Positions 39,226 to 50,115 of a DNA stretch of 64,000 bases are shown piece after piece. The number at the start of each line of letters is the position of its first letter. Positions within the stretch are counted from its first letter, which is position 1. Origin of the DNA: Chiloscyllium plagiosum. Lineage: Eukaryota. A model generated the notes under the pieces. That model was given only the letters and a program-made list of their open reading frames with translations, was not told the origin of the DNA and made no database searches. The translations under genes and the position numbers were made by a program. The stretch lies in the NCBI RefSeq assembly GCF_004010195.1, contig NC_057753.1, forward strand, positions 8,341,309 through 8,405,308. Reading direction: 5' to 3'.

Positions 39226-40530
39226 AGTGGGATCAGTGGTGAGCTGGTAAGGTAGATCCAGAATTGGCTGTTTTCATAGAAGCCAGCGTAGTGGTTGAAG
39301 TGTGGTTTTCTGACTGGAGATCTGTGATCGGTGCTGTGCCTCAGAGATCAATGCTGGTGCCGCAATTGTTTGTAAAATATATAAATGATCTGCAGGATAT
39401 CCTGATACGCAATTTTCTGGGCAATGAACATTTTGGTGAGCTGCGCACAGTGAGGACGATTGCCAAAGGATCCAGCATGACTTAAATCGAATGGAGAGTT
39501 TTATAGAGAAAACGCAGATGTATTTAACCTGGATAATTGAGAGGCGAGGCATCTTTGGATTGCCTAGTGCAGGAGATAAGTATGCAGTAAGTGGCAGAAG
39601 TATCAATAGCATCATTATCAGGAGGGATCTAGTTTTATAGGTTCCCTAAAATTGGCAATAAAAGTGGATAAGGTGATCAAGATGACGTACAGCATGTTTG
39701 TTTTCATCGATCGGGGCAGAGAGTTTTAAACTGGTAAGTCATGTTGCAGCTGCACAGAATTTTAATTCGGGCAGATTTGGAATATTTTGCACAGCACTAT
39801 TTTCCACACCACCGAGAACGACGTGGAGGCTTTGAAGACGGTATGGAAAACCGTTTATTCGGATGTTACCTGATTTGGAGCGTTTTAACTACGAGGACAG
39901 TTTTGGAGAAACTTGACTTATTTTTACTTGAAAGTGAATTGCCGAGAGGCTACCTGATTGCGCTTTTTAAAATGGTAAGAGACATAGAAATAATAGATAG
40001 AGGAGTCATTTTTTCCCCAGAAAAGAAATATCAACTACAAGGGAGCATAGTTGCAATTTCAAAGAGGAAAGGTTTAAAGGAAATGTGAGACACAAGTTTT
40101 ATTTTGCACAGCACGTGTAAGTGCCTAGGAAATGGAAACGTGCGTAAAGATGATAGAATGACAACGTTTATCAGACATCTTGATAAATAGCTGAGTAACG
40201 GTTCAGCAGCTGATTGTTGGGAAGCCCCCTTTCCACCTTTACTATTTCCGTCCTATCATAGGATGATTCCTTCTACAATGAGGGAAGTGACAAGAGTTAT
40301 AAAGGGAAATAGAAGTGGTTTGCACTTCTGTTCATGCTGCTACAGCTGTGGTAAGGTGGAGACTTGTCTTGAGCGAGTGAGCATGCACTGCAGAGGCCAC
40401 ACGGAGATGGCAAGAATGGCAGAGAACAGGTAGGAATAGGCAGGGAATAGACCATTCGAGACCGCGGAGAGAATTTTTTTTACTTTAGAAAGGAGTCGTG
40501 TGTTGGCATTGGTTTGGAGGACCGGGTCCT
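39226..40530 (+). mobile_element. Older CR1 3' fragment; its 3' end is interrupted by a 238-bp insertion
   Basis: WRSVIGAVPQRSML..YINDL; LQLHRIL..LEY; UTR resumes AATAGGCAGGGAATAG at about 40435. Confidence 0.8.
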
Positions 40531-41526
40531 ACACTTTTTTTATAAATTTCTTTGCGACAAAATTATAGCATTGGAGTGGCTAATGCTGATTAGGTGATTA
40601 TTGATTATCAACAGCCATGTCAATGTAGATCGTTTCTCATCAGCTGACACCCTCATAATCCTGCTTCACACTAGAAGAAAAAATGACAATGAGAATTTGG
40701 AAGACAGAGCAGGTAAGTAGTTTCTTCTTGCTCCTGCGGCTTCTATCTTAGATGCCAACGTATCGGGGAATGTTTCATTGGCATAAGCTGAATGCACTCC
40801 ACAGTCACAAATGCCGGCATCTGTCACATGCCAGCCTCACCATGCTATCACAGGATATCACCATTCTACTGACATTACGCTTCTGAAATTGAATGCTGCA
40901 GCTCAGGGTTCACTGAAAACTCTCATTATGTTGCTGCTGCAAGGATACCTTCCTCTGGGAGGCAGAGCCAGCTTACAGACTGCACCTCTTGGCGGCTTAC
41001 TGTGTTTGTACACACTCACATTAAGGTTACTTCAATGCTCAATAAATTGTTTCCTTGATTTATCCTGCCCTTAACAGTAATTTACTTCAGCCAGAGGGAA
41101 CAAGCTTACACATTTGGTATTTTCCCATTGTTTTGCACAGACAGAAAACCAGGAAGATGATATCACTTTCCACAGTGAATCGAGGTGCCCAGCATTGTTG
41201 GGTTCAGGACAGTATGGAATACCGTTCCAGGGAACTTGGACAGGTTCATTCAGCTTCTCATGTTTATTAGGGTCAGGATCCTTTCAACGTAACGGTTCAG
41301 CAGCTGATTGTTGGGAAGCCCCCTCTCCACCTTTACTATTTCCGTCCTATCATAGGATGATTCCTTCTACAATGAGGGAAGTGACAAGAGTTATAAAGGG
41401 AAATAGAAGTGGTTAGCACTTCTGTTCATGTTGGTACTGCTGTGGTAAGGTGGAGACTTGTCTTGAGCGAGTGAGCATGCAGTGCAGAGGCCACACGGAG
41501 ATGGCGAGAATGGCAGAGAACAGGTA
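40195..41526 (+). repeat. 238-bp direct repeat pair (40195-40432 and 41289-41526), about 7 mismatches
   Basis: Direct comparison, from GTAACGGTTCAGCAGC to GGCAGAGAACAGGTA. Confidence 0.95.
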
Positions 41527-41652: not shown

Positions 41653-42251
41653 TATTAACTCAGAAATCCTTGGAGCACACATACATTAAAAAGCAGAACA
41701 CACTTTATTATAATTAAGCTGGAGAGAAATCGATAGTCAATAATCGAGAATATCAACCATTGATATCCCTGCACATGCTAATAAAAGATCTCTTAATCTC
41801 TGGAAAGAGGCAGCATGATTTGTACCCTTAATGTGCTTTAATATCTCACTTTTCTCTAATTCCCACCAGATACATTTCTTGTGTTAATTAGGTACCCATT
41901 AGATAATTAACACATTTCGTATTGTTAAAAAAAAAACCTACTGAAATGGTTTCATTTGTGTCACCGCACGCGAACCAGATAATTCATACGTTTAGTATAG
42001 TTTCACATAGGTTAGCAAAGCCATTAATGTGGTGTCTTTTACGTCAACATAGATAATACCTCAGTTAAAATCAGTATTCTAGACAAAATGTTACAGAAAA
42101 TGGGAAAGAAACAAATCTGCCAAGATGTGTGCATTTCTTATTCCATTTTCATGGAAACCAGGCTTAGCCATTTTTAAAGTCAAGTTATTATTCCAAACTG
42201 GAGACTTGCAAAATAGAGGACTTTAGCTACTCTTTCTCCGATACTTTAACA
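41653..42251 (-). repeat. ERV 3' LTR (about 600 bp)
   Basis: Starts TGTTAA right after the PPT and ends GTTAATA; AATAAA at 41704-41709 (minus); homologous to 49558-49760. Confidence 0.85.
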
Positions 42252-42274: not shown

Positions 42275-43556
42275 GGTCAATCTGGCCATTCATACACGTT
42301 TCAACGAATGCAATTTGATATCAGAGACGATCAGCACTTGAACACGAAAATGCAGATAATTACAGGGAGAACGATAGTGCCAAAATAAAATAGAATGCTC
42401 CTCATACTCCCAAAGAAAGCCTGAAATGGCCACCATTCATTGAGACTACCCATACTACCATAACACATGGTATTTAGCTTTGGACTTCCGGGGTAATGTG
42501 CCTTCAGAGATCACTAATGTGGAGGTTCGGCCAGATGTGTTGGTACGGCATTTCTTTCCTACAGTGGCACAGGTTCCAGCCTTCTTATGCAATTAAAGTC
42601 CAAGATCAAACGACTTTGCAAGGCTACTGTCCTGATTGCGACAATTTCTGCATTGATATTCACCAGGATATTTGTTGTGTTGTTCGCGAAAATTTCCAGT
42701 ATTTTCCTCAATTTGCTTAAATCAGAGCCCTGTAAATAGAACCAAAAGGAAGAGAAGCCATTCCAATAATTGGGAATAGAGCAGAGAGATACCTCTTCCT
42801 GCTCAAGGGTGAAGGCAATCTATCGAAGATCTGCTTAAGAGGAGCAAAATGCCCCATATAACATGATCCTCACCAGTCTGAAGGGACCCATTGATAGGCC
42901 TTGAGTCCGCTAACAAAATAAGTGCCATTATAGGCAGTTAAGTTAGAATATCCATCTTTCCATTCGCCCTTCCAAAGCATTCCTGATGTTATGTTAAGGA
43001 TGCAGGACCGATCAAACAAAAAAACAACAAATTTAGTCAAAATTAAATTATGTTCAATCCATGGGATAGTGAATGAGCAATGACTGGTCCCCAAATATAT
43101 GCCAGTGGAGAAGTTCCCACTTTTAATACACGCAAATAGTGTCATTAATATTATTATTATGAACTAACAGGAAAGGGGGCATATGGGATCTGTCATAATC
43201 ACGTGGGTACCAATGTCTGAAAAAGTTCATTCCATACCCTGCTGACTGCCTTAATTTTATTTGAATCATCAGAAGAGTCCCAGTGTGTTAGCTATTTAGC
43301 CACCTTGGGCCAGCTAAAGAAAACTGCCCATAGAGTGATACTCCCCTGGGAAAAGGGCGACACATGAGCACATGTCCAACAACCAAGTTTCTTTTCCCAT
43401 CTCTTGGTCACTTCGAGTAGCCAAATACAAAAAGGCACTGTGATATATAGATTGTCTTGGTCGCACTACCGGGAACAACGCAATATTAACATGAAAGTCT
43501 CTTTCCCCCAAGGTAAATCGACTCAGATTTATCAAAATCACCAGTATCCAATGCAT
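42275..43556 (-). pseudogene. env: ERV envelope, gamma-type, frameshifted
   Basis: Signal-like MHWILVILINL; CWTC 43370-43381; GTYFVSG..AY.W.P..W.GSCY; SRKR 42792-42803; ISD-like LQSRLILD; CATVGKKCR (CX6CC remnant); hydrophobic anchor. Confidence 0.88.
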
Positions 43557-43599: not shown

Positions 43600-46500
43600 C
43601 CGTTCTATGAATTCAGCGGTGTTGTCCTTGCACCTTCACAGTCGTGGGGGTGGTCAGCAGCACCTGAAACGGTCGTTCTACCTTGGCCGCAAGATCCCCC
43701 GGTCCCAGTTCTTAACCTGTAGAAAACCGCCAGGTTCTACAGTAGGGTAGTTCCTCCAGGCGAATTGTCATCTACTCGGAAGGCTTTACATACCCGTGAA
43801 GGTAAATTTTGAAGAGCTCAGGTTAATTTACACAGTTATATTCCCATTTCCTATCCCAGAATGTGCCTTTCCAATCTTTCAGGAACATGGGGCCGGGCTA
43901 CCCCAGATGCCCACAGAGTCCGCATTGGTTTCCGAAAAACAATCTCGGTGGGGAATACTCCTGATTTATTTGAGGGTGTAACTCTCATATGAAATAGTGA
44001 CAAAAGCAGGGCCTTTAACCAGTTCAGTCCTGTTGCTTGCATCTACTTTGGGCAACTTATTCTTTGCTGTACCATTTACTCGCTCCACTATCCCAGTTGC
44101 TCCTGGATGGTGAGTACAATGTTGTTTTATGTCCAGTTCATTGCAGATCTGCTTGTTCATCTTAGCTGCAAAGTGTGGACCATTGTCCAAATCTATCATT
44201 TCAGGAAGTCTGTAACGGGGAACCGTTTCCCTCAGTAATATTTTTACCATAGTTGCAGCAGTATCATTAGTCATGGGGATGGCTTCGATATATCTCCTAA
44301 AAACATCGACTATAACTAAACAATACTTTTAGCATTGTACTTTAGGAAATTCTATTAAATCAATCTGTAGACACACAAAAGGCCCACCAGGCAAGGGGGT
44401 GGTTCCAGAGCTGCAGGGCATCCCTTGACCAGCATTCATCTTTTTATAAATTAAGCATGCATTAGCTCTTTTCTCAGCAGCCTTCTGTAAATCTAAGTAC
44501 CACCAGGGTTGTAGTAAGATGTTAACCATTCCCTCCTTGCCCAAGTGTGTACAATTATAAACATAATCAATGAGAATAGGTAGGAGCAACGATGGAACAC
44601 AAACTTGTCCTGCAGGGGACACCCACAGTCTAGTTAAAGTGTCAAAGAGCAGCCCGACTGAGTCCAAGGATTTTGGTCATCAGCAGGGGCGACCCCCTGT
44701 AATTGTTGAATTTCATCCATATCTAGCATACCCGTCCTTACACAATATCTAATAATGCATTGAAGGGAACCAAAGGGGACCAAAAGCGCAGGGTGTAAGG
44801 CAGCCTCTTTAGCAGCAGCGTCCACCCGTTCGTTGACTATGGAGACAGGATCAGCAGCACCAGTGTGAGCTGGACATTTACTAACAGCTAATCTAGAAGG
44901 AAATTGCAGAGCCTTTAAAAGTTTATGAACAAAGACAGCATTACTAACAGGCTGTCCCGTGGAAGTAAAAAAGCCCTTGCTTTCCCACAAAGCACCATAA
45001 TCATCGGCCACAACAAAAGCATAACGGGAGTCAATACAAAAAATATTAACCTCTTTCCGCCACGCCAGCATGTAGGCACGAGAAGGGAGGATAATTTAGC
45101 TCTTTATGTAGAAGTAGGTGTATCAAAGCAGCCTGGTGTAAATGTCTCTAATGTCAGAATTAGAGGCAACCACATATCGACAACAATGCTGTCCTGAAGG
45201 ACCGATAAAGAAACTACCGTTAACAAAAGGTTTAAATCAGCATCCAGAAGCAGCATATCAGACACATCATCGCGTGCCGAGGTGCATAAGTGGTTTCACA
45301 ACAAACAATCATGACCAGGGAGGGAGATGTGACGAGGTGGATCAGTCAAAATGTAGCAGGATTCAGAGTAATGCAGTGCGAGAAGTTAAGTAGTGGATTA
45401 CTGAGAAGGGCAGACTCGGAGCTATTTTGCAGAGCAAAAGTCAAATGCTGGGTTTGATGAGAAGTGAGGAGTTCAACAATGGAATGTGGAACGAAAACTG
45501 TAACTGGCTGATGGAAGGTAAAATTTGAGGCAGAAACGAGGACGTAAACGACTGGAAGAACCTGCGAGATGGGGAAGCCCAGCGCCGCTGAATCTAGTTT
45601 GGTAGAGTAATAACCGACCTGGCTCTTTTTATCCTGATGAGTTTGAGTTAAAACAGCAGTAGCACAACATTCCCAAACGGCAACATACAATTGGAAGGGA
45701 CGATCATAGAGGAGTCAAGCGGGTATGAACTGCAATGGTTGATATCCATTGTCTCCAAAAATTCAGAAGTCCGAGAAAAGCACACATCTCTTTAAAGGTT
45801 GTCAATGGCGGAGTATTAGCAATAGGGCGTAAATGAGCCTCAGTGAGTTTTCATTCTTCCTTCAAAAGCCGAATGCCGAAACATTTAATCTCATCGCGGT
45901 AGCTTGAACCTTGTGGGCCGTGATGACATATCCAAGAGAGTGTAAGAAGTTCAGTAAGACTACGGTGTCAATTTCACAGTCAGGAAGGCTGCAACTAACA
46001 ACAGTAAATGATGGATGTATTGATCGACAGTAGACCCCTTAGGTAGTTCCAAGGACCGAAGTTGATTATGGGGGGTATGTGAAAATAAAGTAGGTGAGTG
46101 GACAAAAGCCTGTGGAAATCGTTTCCACGTTTACTGCTGTCCTCGGTACACAAAGGCAAACAAAAACGAAGATTCAGGGTGGAAAGGAATGACGAAAGAA
46201 GCATGCTGTATATCAATGATAGTAAAAAAAAACACAGGCCTTGGCGGGTATGCAGCTTAAAACAGTAGCAGAGTTTGGAATCAGAGGGTGGAGGGATGCA
46301 ACAAGGTCGTTCATCTCCCTCTGACCTTCCACAATTTGCCTATCTTTCGTCCCGGTTTGGGAACAGGAGAAATAGGGGTGTCACAAGGAGACTTGCATGG
46401 AATAAGAGTTCCTTGTGCTAACAAAAAGTGTCGGTAAGACCACGGAGGATTTCTTCCTCCGCTTCATTGTTCAAGGGAAAAATCTGATTGTCTTGAAATT

Positions 46501-47442
46501 TAATGAGAATAGGAGGGCAGGGGGGAAAACCACCTTCGTGACTGGAGGCAGCCCATACCTGGAGCTTAATTTATTTACAGGGATCAATCCTGGAAGTATG
46601 GTGAATCAATGTACCAAACATCTAACGTGGCTGCTTAAAATATGTCAAATGCCCCTCAGAGAATGTATGCCAACTCCCCGCCTCCCCGGTCCCCCACCGC
46701 ACGTGTTCAACGCGGGATGAGTCAAAGAATAGGCCAGAAGTCCCAAGACTTAAGGTGTGAATCGGAATGTATGATCCGAGTAACATGTTGGACAAACAAC
46801 CCTGTCTGACGCCACAGAGAGACCGGGATTGCGCGACGTAGGTAAGCCTTCCTTACCTTCTATATCTCCAGTAATAGAAACGGGGAATTCTATGGCCATG
46901 AATGGCACGTATAACTGTCTATCATGAGAAGAGCACCCGGAAGTATCGTAGCAAACAATCACTTACTGGAAGGGGTCAGGAATGAGGGCTCAAAGGCTGA
47001 AACGTCAATGCTCACTCCCACCATTGGGGTATGAAAAACTGTGTGTACTATGTTTGACTGAGTATTCCTAAAGCAGTAGCTTCGTCAGCACAGATGATCC
47101 CAACTCGTAGTGGTGATGCAGGTGTCTCCCAGTCAAATTACATCCGAGCCCAATGGAAACAGTAAAAGGAATACAACAGAACAGACCACAATATTCAACC
47201 AGTAACGGGATAGTCAGGGGATACAAACTGCTCAACACCCCAAAACCAGTAAGTGGCACCGACTTGTCAGACATATGAAATCTCCTATCCATTACAACAT
47301 CCTGATTGAGGGTGGAAAACATTGCCCCCGATTCAATCATAAATGGATGAGGTACGTAATCCACAACTACATTAACGTTGTGTTCTTGATGAAGAGATAG
47401 TGGAACATACTGACAACAGGAAAGTTCTGATAAAGGAATCAA
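43600..47442 (-). pseudogene. pol: ERV pro-pol: protease, 2H-like insert, RT, tether, RNase H, integrase
   Basis: FMIESGA and NLTGRHL (PR); SPCDTPI.PV.KP and QYIHHLL (YxDD decayed, 46008-46019); IDSRYAF and KCPAH (RH); HLG, LQIDLI, DNGPHF, GIVERVN, PFQVLLTTPT (IN). Confidence 0.92.
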
Positions 47443-48088
47443 ACGAAAGGGCTGTTAGCAGTGAAAAATGCTTGGGGCGGGCCCGAAGGAGATAGAGTTG
47501 TCTCTTAACTAAATAGACGTTGGGATTTCAACTGCCTTTATATTCTACACAGGTAAAACACGGGCCAGAATGCGTAGATGGACGTGAAGGTGACTTAAGG
47601 GTATAATGACAATGAAACTCCCTTGCCCCAAATGGTTGAAAAGAGACTCCTTGTCCATAAAAAACAGATCCCTCTGGCAAGGGTCAATGGGAGGAGGTTG
47701 CTGGGTGGGCACTTGAGGAAAGTAAGGCCCTCCTCTAGCATGATGGTCCCAATTATTCCGTGAGAATAGGCACACGGGGAGCATGGTTCGCAAAGTCGTT
47801 AAACGAATTCAGTCTTCACCTGAAGTTGAGTCTTCAGTTTGCGTTTGTTTTGGCCATCCCAATTCATATTATTGGTGCGAATTATATCAGCAACATCGGG
47901 GGTACACATTGCAAAGTCATAGAGTTGAATAAAGATGAGTTATCCTCGCGATTGAAAGCTGGTATAATAACAGGAAGCAAAGTGATACACAAAGTCACTG
48001 CCTGACGACTCAGATTTAGGTTTGCATTCCAGAACTTTACCAATATTTATTGAGTGCTGAAGAGAACGCTCTAGGGACTGAATGATTC

Positions 48089-48588
48089 NNNNNNNNNNNN
48101 NNNNNNNNNNNNNNNNNNNNNNNNNNNNNNNNNNNNNNNNNNNNNNNNNNNNNNNNNNNNNNNNNNNNNNNNNNNNNNNNNNNNNNNNNNNNNNNNNNNN
48201 NNNNNNNNNNNNNNNNNNNNNNNNNNNNNNNNNNNNNNNNNNNNNNNNNNNNNNNNNNNNNNNNNNNNNNNNNNNNNNNNNNNNNNNNNNNNNNNNNNNN
48301 NNNNNNNNNNNNNNNNNNNNNNNNNNNNNNNNNNNNNNNNNNNNNNNNNNNNNNNNNNNNNNNNNNNNNNNNNNNNNNNNNNNNNNNNNNNNNNNNNNNN
48401 NNNNNNNNNNNNNNNNNNNNNNNNNNNNNNNNNNNNNNNNNNNNNNNNNNNNNNNNNNNNNNNNNNNNNNNNNNNNNNNNNNNNNNNNNNNNNNNNNNNN
48501 NNNNNNNNNNNNNNNNNNNNNNNNNNNNNNNNNNNNNNNNNNNNNNNNNNNNNNNNNNNNNNNNNNNNNNNNNNNNNNNNNNNNNNNN
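48089..48588. other. Assembly gap (500 N)
   Basis: Run of N. Confidence 1.
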
Positions 48589-48617
48589 CTGTATTCTTCT
48601 ATGTTCTATGTTCTATG
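48589..48617 (+). mobile_element. CR1 3' tail emerging from the gap (insertion in gag)
   Basis: CTGTATTCTTCTATGTTCTATGTTCTATG. Confidence 0.85.
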
Positions 48618-49557: not shown

Positions 49558-50115
49558 TGTTAACTCGAAAATGTTGGAATCACATGTAAATTGGAAGGAA
49601 AAACACACTTTACAGTAATTAAGCTGGTGAGAGATCAATAGTCAACAATCCAGAGTATGAATCATAGATATTCCTAAATATGCGAATAAAACTTCTCTAA
49701 TACTTAGTAAAGAGGCAGCAAAATGTATACCCTTAATATCTAATTTTTCTCTAATTCTTATTAGATTAGATTCCCTACAGTGTGGAAACAGGCTCTTCGG
49801 CCCAACAAGTGCACACCGACAATCCAAAGAGCAGCCCACCCAGACCCATTCCCCAACATTTACCCCTGACTAATGCACCTAACACCACGGGCAATTTAAC
49901 ATGGCCAATTAACCTGACCTGCACATCTTTGTACTGTGGGAGGAAACCCAAGCAGAAACAGGGAGAATGCGCAAACTCCACACAGACAGTTGCCCGAGGT
50001 GGGAATTGAACCCATGTCCGTGGCGCTGTGAGGCAGCAGCGCTAACCACTGAGCCACCGTGCCGCCCCGTATAACACAGTTTTTTTTGTATGAATTAGGT
50101 TTCCAATAGAACAAA
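49558..50115 (-). repeat. ERV 5' LTR, partial (SINE inserted; the rest is lost at the CR1)
   Basis: 49558-49760 and 50069-50115 align to 41653-41905. Confidence 0.85.
49761..50068 (-). mobile_element. HE1-type V-SINE, full length
   Basis: Minus: GGCGGCACGGTGGCTCAGTGGTTAGC..GGGTTCAATTCC..V-domain..(AATCT)n. Confidence 0.95.

What the first reader, a model, noticed from the sequence alone, without database searches (positions are those of the whole stretch)
46700..47060. Candidate 2H phosphoesterase domain between protease and RT of a shark ERV
Seen: several hundred extra nt separate the protease end (about 47100) from the RT start (about 46500). Across frameshifts the minus strand reads PDPF[Q*VI]VCYD...Y...ITGDIEGKEG...LW...VQHVT(46779-46787)RII....KS(LG)LL. 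That gives one intact HxT motif and a decayed upstream motif (plausibly H-V-T-V-C-Y-D) about 60 codons earlier. Established: 2H phosphoesterases have two Hx(T/S) motifs; such domains occur at this position in some piscine retrovirus polyproteins; coronavirus ns2 and rotavirus VP3 2H enzymes degrade 2-5A to block OAS/RNase L. Inference: this lineage carried a nucleotide-messenger-degrading or RNA-end-processing enzyme, possibly an innate-immune antagonist. I know of no characterisation in chondrichthyan retroviruses. This copy is dead.
Basis: partly seen in the sequence, partly recalled or inferred. Interest (0 to 1): 0.75.

Follow-up and report, generated by a model that had tools for sequence, protein, structure and literature searches.

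The report
CNPase-like enzyme in dead shark retrovirus
A dead retrovirus in what is likely a shark genome carries, between its protease and reverse transcriptase, the broken remains of a two-histidine enzyme domain predicted to fold like the RNA-end enzyme CNPase; such domains are already known from bony-fish retroviruses, and this one likely opened cyclic-phosphate RNA ends rather than destroying the 2-5A alarm signal.

Summary
The insert is real: about 47050-46590 (minus strand), between protease and RT of a decayed epsilon-like provirus. Sister copies (56 matches in this genome) and skate, teleost and newt Pol proteins carry two H-x-T/S motifs about 60 residues apart. A sister copy's open frame is predicted to fold like CNPase (Z 13.2) and the fungal RNA-kinase C-terminal domain (Z 11.4), well above the 2-5A-degrading enzymes VP3, ns2 and AKAP18 (Z 4.5-6.9). 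The 2H call holds; the 2-5A reading is the weaker one. Most likely activity: opening 2',3'-cyclic phosphates on RNA ends, delivered in the virion with RT (inferred, untested). The domain is already described in fish retroviruses (PMC4977317, PMC9503650), and this scan noted it before in this genome and in a ray. I found no functional study in ten searches. New member of a known kind; interest 0.3.

The parts
46590..47050 (-). Decayed CNPase-type 2H phosphoesterase domain between protease and RT, split over several frames; ends approximate
   Evidence: Piecewise tblastn against the open frame of sister L011 and skate Pol P0007; fold of the sister stretch
46779..46787 (-). Second catalytic motif, H-V-T, intact
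   Evidence: aligns with H-I-T of L011
46945..46970 (-). Site of the first catalytic motif, not readable in this copy (frameshift at about 46970-46963), followed by V-I-V-C-Y-D
   Evidence: sister loci read H-x-T/S at this place in 18 of 28 covered
47115..47385 (-). Retroviral aspartyl protease, decayed; active site reads E-S-G at 47334
   Evidence: tblastn with P0007; sister L026 matches Pfam RVP at E 0.0016
45313..46570 (-). Reverse transcriptase and connection region, broken
   Evidence: Pfam RT_RNaseH on 45346-45714
44649..45083 (-). RNase H
   Evidence: Pfam RNase_H E 3.5e-8
43905..44628 (-). Integrase, broken
   Evidence: Pfam rve E 4.8e-11
47757..48086 (-). gag fragment next to an assembly gap (N run about 48086-48598)
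   Evidence: tblastn with skate P0012/P0014, E 4e-6 and 3e-8
42335..42941 (-). env remnant (TM part); ends shortly after a hydrophobic stretch, so no long cytoplasmic extension
   Evidence: tblastn with P0025, E 1e-6; translation; the boundary is my reading
41653..42251 (-). 3' LTR, preceded by a polypurine tract at 42263-42252
   Evidence: 74% identity over 210 columns with the 5' LTR end
49558..49757 (-). 3' end of the 5' LTR; its upstream part appears interrupted by other repeats
   Evidence: D14; 40 matches in the genome
49541..49554 (-). Primer-binding site, 12 of 14 bases equal to that of sister L063, which is complementary to the 3' end of host tRNA-His genes
   Evidence: 2 of 4 loci checked called tRNA-His(GTG), 2 called tRNA-Tyr(GTA)

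Best explanation
The segment is the decayed remnant of a compact two-histidine phosphoesterase domain that this epsilon-like retrovirus lineage carried between protease and RT, predicted to have the CNPase fold and likely to have acted as a 2',3'-cyclic-phosphate phosphodiesterase on RNA ends. Shown: position, shared ancestry with sister copies and fish retroviral Pol inserts, and two conserved H-x-T/S motifs. Predicted: the CNPase / tRNA-ligase-CPD type of 2H fold. Inferred: as part of Gag-Pro-Pol it would be packaged in the virion next to RT. CNPase-type chemistry (established knowledge) turns a 2',3'-cyclic phosphate into 2'-phosphate plus 3'-OH. It would thus reopen nuclease-nicked ends of the packaged tRNA-His primer or genomic RNA, or remove such ends and 2',3'-cNMPs as signals. 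Odds: 2H domain 0.97; CNPase-type subgroup 0.9; cyclic-phosphate substrate 0.6; the primer/genome-end role specifically about 0.3.
For: 56 matches in the own genome. Of 29 non-window loci, motif 1 reads H-x-T/S in 18 of 28 covered and motif 2 in 18 of 25 covered (counts include the query L011 and two marginal motif-2 readings). Of 74 Pol proteins with PR and RT both placed, 35 have a 161-239 aa linker; 29 of these 35 hold a motif pair 59-72 aa apart, against 0 of 39 with short linkers. In 35 aligned inserts the motif columns are H 34, T 35, H 34, T/S 33, while inserts share only 25-35% identity with the skate insert in 5 pairs. AF2 model of L011: pLDDT 86.5; VIA Z 13.2, rmsd 3.6, 147 aligned to mouse CNPase, next best 7.2; 6u05 'fungal RNA kinase' residues 638-832, Z 11.4. 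ESM Atlas: PF08302 tRNA_lig_CPD cluster at 0.95. A second model from the complete retrovirus genome L059 gives Z 16.9 to CNPase, next 8.4. Viral structural neighbours include RNA-ligase proteins of giant viruses and phages. PMC9503650 describes 2H domains as cleaners of cyclic-phosphate RNA ends.
Against: No activity has been measured, and a shared fold shows no function. Identity to CNPase is only 10-15%. Pfam CNPase finds only the host gene's exons in this genome, none of the ERV copies, and the insert profile scores a host CNP exon at only E 2. Motif spacing is about 60 residues against an average of 80 (PMC8406329). 6 of 35 long linkers lack a clean motif pair, among them a tuna/croaker group with a changed second motif. 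Amniote-associated relatives do without the domain, so it is not needed for reverse transcription in general. Whether RT can extend a 2'-phosphate/3'-OH end is unknown to me.
Confidence: 0.6

Rival explanations
1. A cyclic-dinucleotide nuclease (cGAMP), working like phage Acb1 or penguinpox PDE, brought in with the reverse-transcription complex to blunt cGAS-STING sensing of viral cDNA.
For: Acb1 (Z 5.9) and penguinpox PDE (Z 4.7) share the fold. Small unnamed virus 2H proteins are near neighbours. Fish-retrovirus inserts vary widely outside the motifs. That cGAS senses retroviral cDNA is recalled.
Against: Z is far below CNPase in both models (13.2 versus 5.9/4.7; 16.9 versus 7.5/6.6). Acb1 rows in BFVD have E 0.011 or worse for the shark-family model.
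Confidence: 0.14
2. A 2-5A-degrading RNase L antagonist like coronavirus ns2 and rotavirus VP3.
For: This genome has OAS genes: 15 OAS1_C matches, a cluster on contig C25. VP3 and ns2 share the fold (Z 6.5, 6.2, 5.6).
Against: The 2',5'-phosphoesterases belong to the eukaryotic-viral LigT group (PMC8406329), and the models sit with CNPase instead. Most named carriers are teleost elements; I recall that teleosts lack OAS/RNase L but found no paper confirming it. The Ribonuc_2-5A search returned three matches; the two I read look like IRE1 (recalled motif). That search is inconclusive for RNase L.
Confidence: 0.1
3. A mimic or decoy of host CNP, which binds HIV-1 matrix and blocks particle formation; the viral domain would compete with it, catalysis being secondary.
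For: A review table lists CNP as binding MA and inhibiting particle formation (PMC7471995). Closest solved fold is CNPase.
Against: The best-conserved columns are the catalytic residues, and identity to CNPase is 10-15%.
Confidence: 0.07
4. [quoted passage not shown]
For: Fish ERVs carry CNPase or macro domains (PMC4977317). Arabidopsis Appr>p CPDase shares the fold (Z 6.4).
Against: Z is well below CNPase. No macro domain appears in the Pfam scan of skate Pol P0007 or in the precomputed domains of the 120 listed Pol relatives.
Confidence: 0.06
5. The segment is not an enzyme: a chance H-x-T in a linker or an unrelated insertion.
For: No Pfam match, no PDB sequence match, and the window's own stretch found no homolog.
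Against: Shared with sister copies and distant Pol proteins, with near-invariant motifs and two confident CNPase-like models.
Confidence: 0.02

Closest known systems
CNPase/2H domains of fish retroviruses (Mazumder et al. 2002 and Basta et al. 2009, seen only as cited in PMC9503650 and PMC4977317)
   Same: Epsilon-like elements of fish. Teleost Pol proteins fetched here have a homologous insert at the same place with the same motif spacing; a profile without teleost-named rows scores them up to 50 bits and L059 at E 6.8e-5.
   Different: Cartilaginous-fish host; shorter insert (linker 161-168 aa in the skate group versus 211-239); motif 1 mostly H-V-T rather than H-C-T. I could not read the two original papers, so the position between PR and RT in them is recalled.
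Vertebrate CNPase / fish RICH catalytic domain (PF05881)
   Same: Best structural match of both models (Z 13.2 and 16.9; goldfish RICH 12.0), covering nearly the whole domain; two H-x-T motifs.
   Different: About 150 versus 210 residues, 10-15% identity, no Pfam CNPase score. Descent from vertebrate CNP is not shown.
Fungal tRNA ligase cyclic phosphodiesterase domain (PF08302; PDB 6u05 residues 638-832, recalled as Trl1 kinase-CPD)
   Same: Z 11.4, rmsd 3.7, 143 aligned; nearest named ESM Atlas cluster, 0.95, family on 63% of members.
   Different: No ligase or kinase partner in the provirus; no sequence-level match.
Envelope polyproteins of walleye epidermal hyperplasia virus 1 (Q9WHI8) and walleye dermal sarcoma virus (A4GTG3)
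   Same: Top BFVD matches (E 4.9e-7 and 7.5e-6, 171-186 columns; again); same tRNA-His primer (PMC3185748).
   Different: The domain is in Env, not Pol. The tool gives no target range; that it is the roughly 170-aa cytoplasmic loop between helices 850-874 and 1045-1069 is my inference.
2',5'-phosphoesterases (MHV ns2, rotavirus VP3-CTD, AKAP7/18) and cGAMP nucleases (Acb1, penguinpox PDE)
   Same: 2H fold and motifs; viral enzymes of similar size.
   Different: Z 4.5-6.9 for the shark-family model, about half the CNPase score.

Membership tests
2H phosphoesterase superfamily | Two H-phi-S/T-phi motifs (PMC8406329) | tested here: met
   Met for the family: H 34, T 35, H 34, T/S 33 of 35 inserts. 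The window copy keeps only the second.
2H phosphoesterase superfamily | Two-lobed 2H fold | tested here: met
   Predicted models; the 14 best rows of the wide structure search are all 2H proteins
2H phosphoesterase superfamily | Metal-independent phosphodiester hydrolysis | not testable with these tools
   Needs an enzyme assay
Fish-retrovirus Pol 2H/CNPase insert | Located between protease and RT in a class I (epsilon-like) Pol | tested here: met
   tRNA-His-type primer site
Fish-retrovirus Pol 2H/CNPase insert | Sequence homology to the teleost inserts | tested here: met
   Profile of A1 scores teleost inserts up to 50 bits and L059 at 20.7 bits; spacing 59-72 shared
Vertebrate CNPase (PF05881) | Pfam CNPase gathering score | tested here: not met
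   0 families on L011 and L059 inserts; the genome search gives only host exons
Vertebrate CNPase (PF05881) | CNPase-type fold | tested here: met
   Z 13.2 and 16.9, well above other 2H rows
Vertebrate CNPase (PF05881) | 2',3'-cNMP to 2'-NMP activity | not testable with these tools
   Needs an assay
2',5'-phosphoesterases (ns2/NS4b/VP3/AKAP7) | [quoted passage not shown] | tested here: not met
   These enzymes are listed but at Z 4.5-6.9 against 13.0-13.5 for most CNPase crystal structures; no sequence match. Rests on predicted models.
2',5'-phosphoesterases (ns2/NS4b/VP3/AKAP7) | Cleavage of 2-5A | not testable with these tools
   Needs an assay
2',5'-phosphoesterases (ns2/NS4b/VP3/AKAP7) | Host has OAS and RNase L | tested here: inconclusive
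   OAS present; RNase L not found by one Pfam search
Acb1 / poxvirus cGAMP PDE | Closest-fold grouping with Acb1 | tested here: not met
   Z 5.9 and 4.7 against 13.2
Acb1 / poxvirus cGAMP PDE | cGAMP cleavage | not testable with these tools
   Needs an assay

The most novel reading that the evidence does not exclude
Fish and shark retroviruses place a CNPase-fold enzyme on the inside of the virion by two routes, in Pol between PR and RT or in the cytoplasmic loop of walleye-virus Env, and use it to destroy a nucleotide alarm such as cGAMP, or to repair a nuclease-clipped tRNA primer, at the start of reverse transcription. It would be a retroviral enzyme activity with no counterpart in amniote retroviruses.
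Probability: 0.2. Interest if true: 0.75.

Novelty: new member of a known kind. Interest (0 to 1): 0.3.

Why it matters
It extends a known but untested accessory enzyme of fish retroviruses to sharks, skates, rays and a newt, and points to a CNPase-type rather than 2-5A-type enzyme. That changes which substrates to test first. The window copy itself is dead and adds no function. The open question, what the enzyme does for a retrovirus, can be tested on naturally intact public proteins and did not need this locus.

Tried and rejected
Protein search with the window's own 85-codon stretch: 0 of 18 candidates scored. Pfam on insert stretches: nothing relevant. PDB sequence searches: nothing, or chance hits at E 0.45 or worse. 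P0008, the weakest of 8 hits, is a repetitive protein and was dropped. Capture from the host CNP gene: not supported by sequence, so left open. RNase L in the host: not found, inconclusive (the third match was not read). Walleye virus genomes were not recognised among the 14 viral loci fetched, so the Env location is not mapped. Origin of the insert: the RT tree of 74 rows needs 4 changes, 2 forced by strong branches, and is only midpoint-rooted, so no order of gain and loss is claimed. No date is given: the LTR ends are 74% identical, but no host rate is at hand and the 5' LTR is partial. Mazumder 2002, Basta 2009 and Burroughs 2016 are not held. PMC12690878 does not mention the domain. No complex prediction or read mapping was run; neither bears on a dead copy.

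Full report
What is there. The window holds a decayed provirus on the minus strand, from a 5' LTR ending at 49558 to a 3' LTR at 42251-41653. The two LTR ends are 74% identical over 210 columns and the LTR has 40 matches in the genome. The primer-binding site equals that of sister L063 at 12 of 14 bases, and the sister's is complementary to host tRNA-His genes (2 of 4 loci checked were called His, 2 Tyr). Walleye epsilonretroviruses also prime with tRNA-His (PMC3185748, passages). A skate Pol protein maps along PR, RT, RNase H and IN.

The observation. Between protease (about 47385-47115) and RT (from about 46570) lies a stretch that matches the open frame of sister locus L011 piece by piece at 41-69% identity. 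H-V-T stands at 46787-46779. The domain spans about 47050-46590. A single H-x-T/S is common (623 in the window's six frames), and the window's own stretch found no homolog, so the case rests on relatives.

Relatives. A sister stretch finds 56 matches among 125 candidates in this genome; 30 were fetched, one being the window. Motif 1 reads H-x-T/S in 18 of 28 covered loci and motif 2 in 18 of 25 (the query L011 is included, and two motif-2 readings are marginal). The representative search gave 8 hits, 7 of them retroviral, including a 1225-aa little-skate Pol with PR, insert, RT, RNase H and IN in one frame. Among 130 proteins examined, 74 had both PR end and RT start placed: 35 have a 161-239 aa linker, 39 a 31-82 aa linker; 29 of 35 versus 0 of 39 hold a motif pair, 59-72 residues apart (five skate rows are near-copies). 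Named carriers are skates, many teleosts and one newt; named short-linker elements come from turtles, squamates, caecilians, birds and mammals. In 35 aligned inserts (four near-duplicates dropped, four rows added) the motif columns are H 34, T 35, H 34, T/S 33, while pairwise identity to the skate insert is 25-35% in five pairs. Of 14 complete retrovirus loci from IMG/VR, one (L059; open frames of 769, 1387 and 688 codons) has the insert. A profile lacking teleost-named rows scores it at E 6.8e-5 and teleost inserts up to 50 bits. The RT tree needs 4 changes of state, 2 forced, and is unrooted, so I claim no history.

Fold. The unaltered L011 stretch gave an AF2 model of pLDDT 86.5. Foldseek's listed hits are all CNPase or RICH. 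Against 48,161 chains the best is mouse CNPase (Z 13.2, rmsd 3.6, 147 aligned); next come drCPDase 7.2, VP3 6.5 and 6.2, Acb1 5.9, MHV ns2 5.6, penguinpox PDE 4.7, AKAP18 4.5. The second look adds goldfish RICH 12.0 and 6u05 residues 638-832 at 11.4. ESM Atlas gives three unnamed, mostly viral clusters and a tRNA-ligase phosphodiesterase cluster at 0.95-0.96. The L059 insert (pLDDT 92.6) repeats the result: CNPase 16.9, next 8.4. WDSV Env has a cytoplasmic loop between helices 850-874 and 1045-1069; that the match lies there is inferred from its size. By sequence nothing links the insert to CNPase: Pfam finds only host exons and a host exon scores E 2 against the insert profile.

How it likely works. 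A domain between PR and RT is made as part of Gag-Pro-Pol and would be packaged with RT (established retroviral biology; not shown for this domain). CNPase and tRNA-ligase CPD domains open 2',3'-cyclic phosphates to 2'-phosphate and 3'-OH (established; PMC9503650 passages describe this use in viral RNA repair). I therefore favour cyclic-phosphate opening on RNA ends (0.6), most plausibly on a nicked primer tRNA or genome (about 0.3). Rivals: cGAMP nuclease 0.14, 2-5A nuclease 0.10, CNP decoy 0.07, Appr>p enzyme 0.06. For 2-5A: the host has OAS genes. Against: those enzymes belong to the LigT group (PMC8406329; abstract, section 5 and passages), and RNase L was not found in one inconclusive search. 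That teleosts lack OAS/RNase L is recalled; PMC6307210, PMC11281423 and PMC9965902 (passages) did not settle it. Against any essential role: some carriers have a changed second motif and amniote-associated relatives lack the domain.

What is known. PMC4977317 (passages) reports CNPase or macro domains in epsilon-like ERVs of ray-finned fish, citing Basta 2009. PMC9503650 (passages) lists 2H domains in fish retroviruses and WDSV, citing Mazumder 2002. Neither original is held. The elephant-shark ERV paper (PMC4422223, part 1 of 2 read) does not mention the domain in that part; its supplements were not opened. PMC7471995 was seen as one table passage. Ten searches found no functional study and no report for cartilaginous fish; most subscription papers are outside the library. 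Two earlier notes of this scan reach the same reading in this genome and in a ray; they are not independent support.

Verdict. A real, dead copy of a known but untested accessory domain. New member of a known kind; interest 0.3.

Noticed in passing
BFVD hits Q9WHI8 and A4GTG3: The same CNPase-type fold appears in walleye retrovirus Env rather than Pol, probably in the cytoplasmic loop; both placements would put it inside the virion.
   Followed up: partly
P0054 (Lissotriton helveticus): A newt Pol carries the insert with both motifs and groups by RT with tuna/croaker elements.
   Followed up: partly
P0034, P0035, P0036, P0045: A group of teleost inserts has lost or changed one catalytic motif while the Pol frame stays open.
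   Followed up: no
G000 contig C25 15.32-15.38 Mb (L040, L042, L043): A cluster of OAS-family genes in this genome, while no RNase L was found by one Pfam search.
   Followed up: partly
P0005 (Amblyraja radiata): Annotated zinc finger protein 271-like, but its N-terminal part is half of the insert plus RT joined to a C2H2 array; likely a gene-model fusion.
   Followed up: no
window 40195-40432 and 41289-41526: A 238-nt direct repeat at 97% identity just beyond the 3' LTR.
   Followed up: no
window 48086-48598: An assembly gap inside gag, bordered by LINE-tail-like repeats.
   Followed up: no
ESM Atlas rows 1-3; BFVD A0A516LHL6, A0A516LSI7: Unnamed 136-156 aa virus proteins look like compact CNPase-type 2H domains and may be the closest free-standing relatives.
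   Followed up: no
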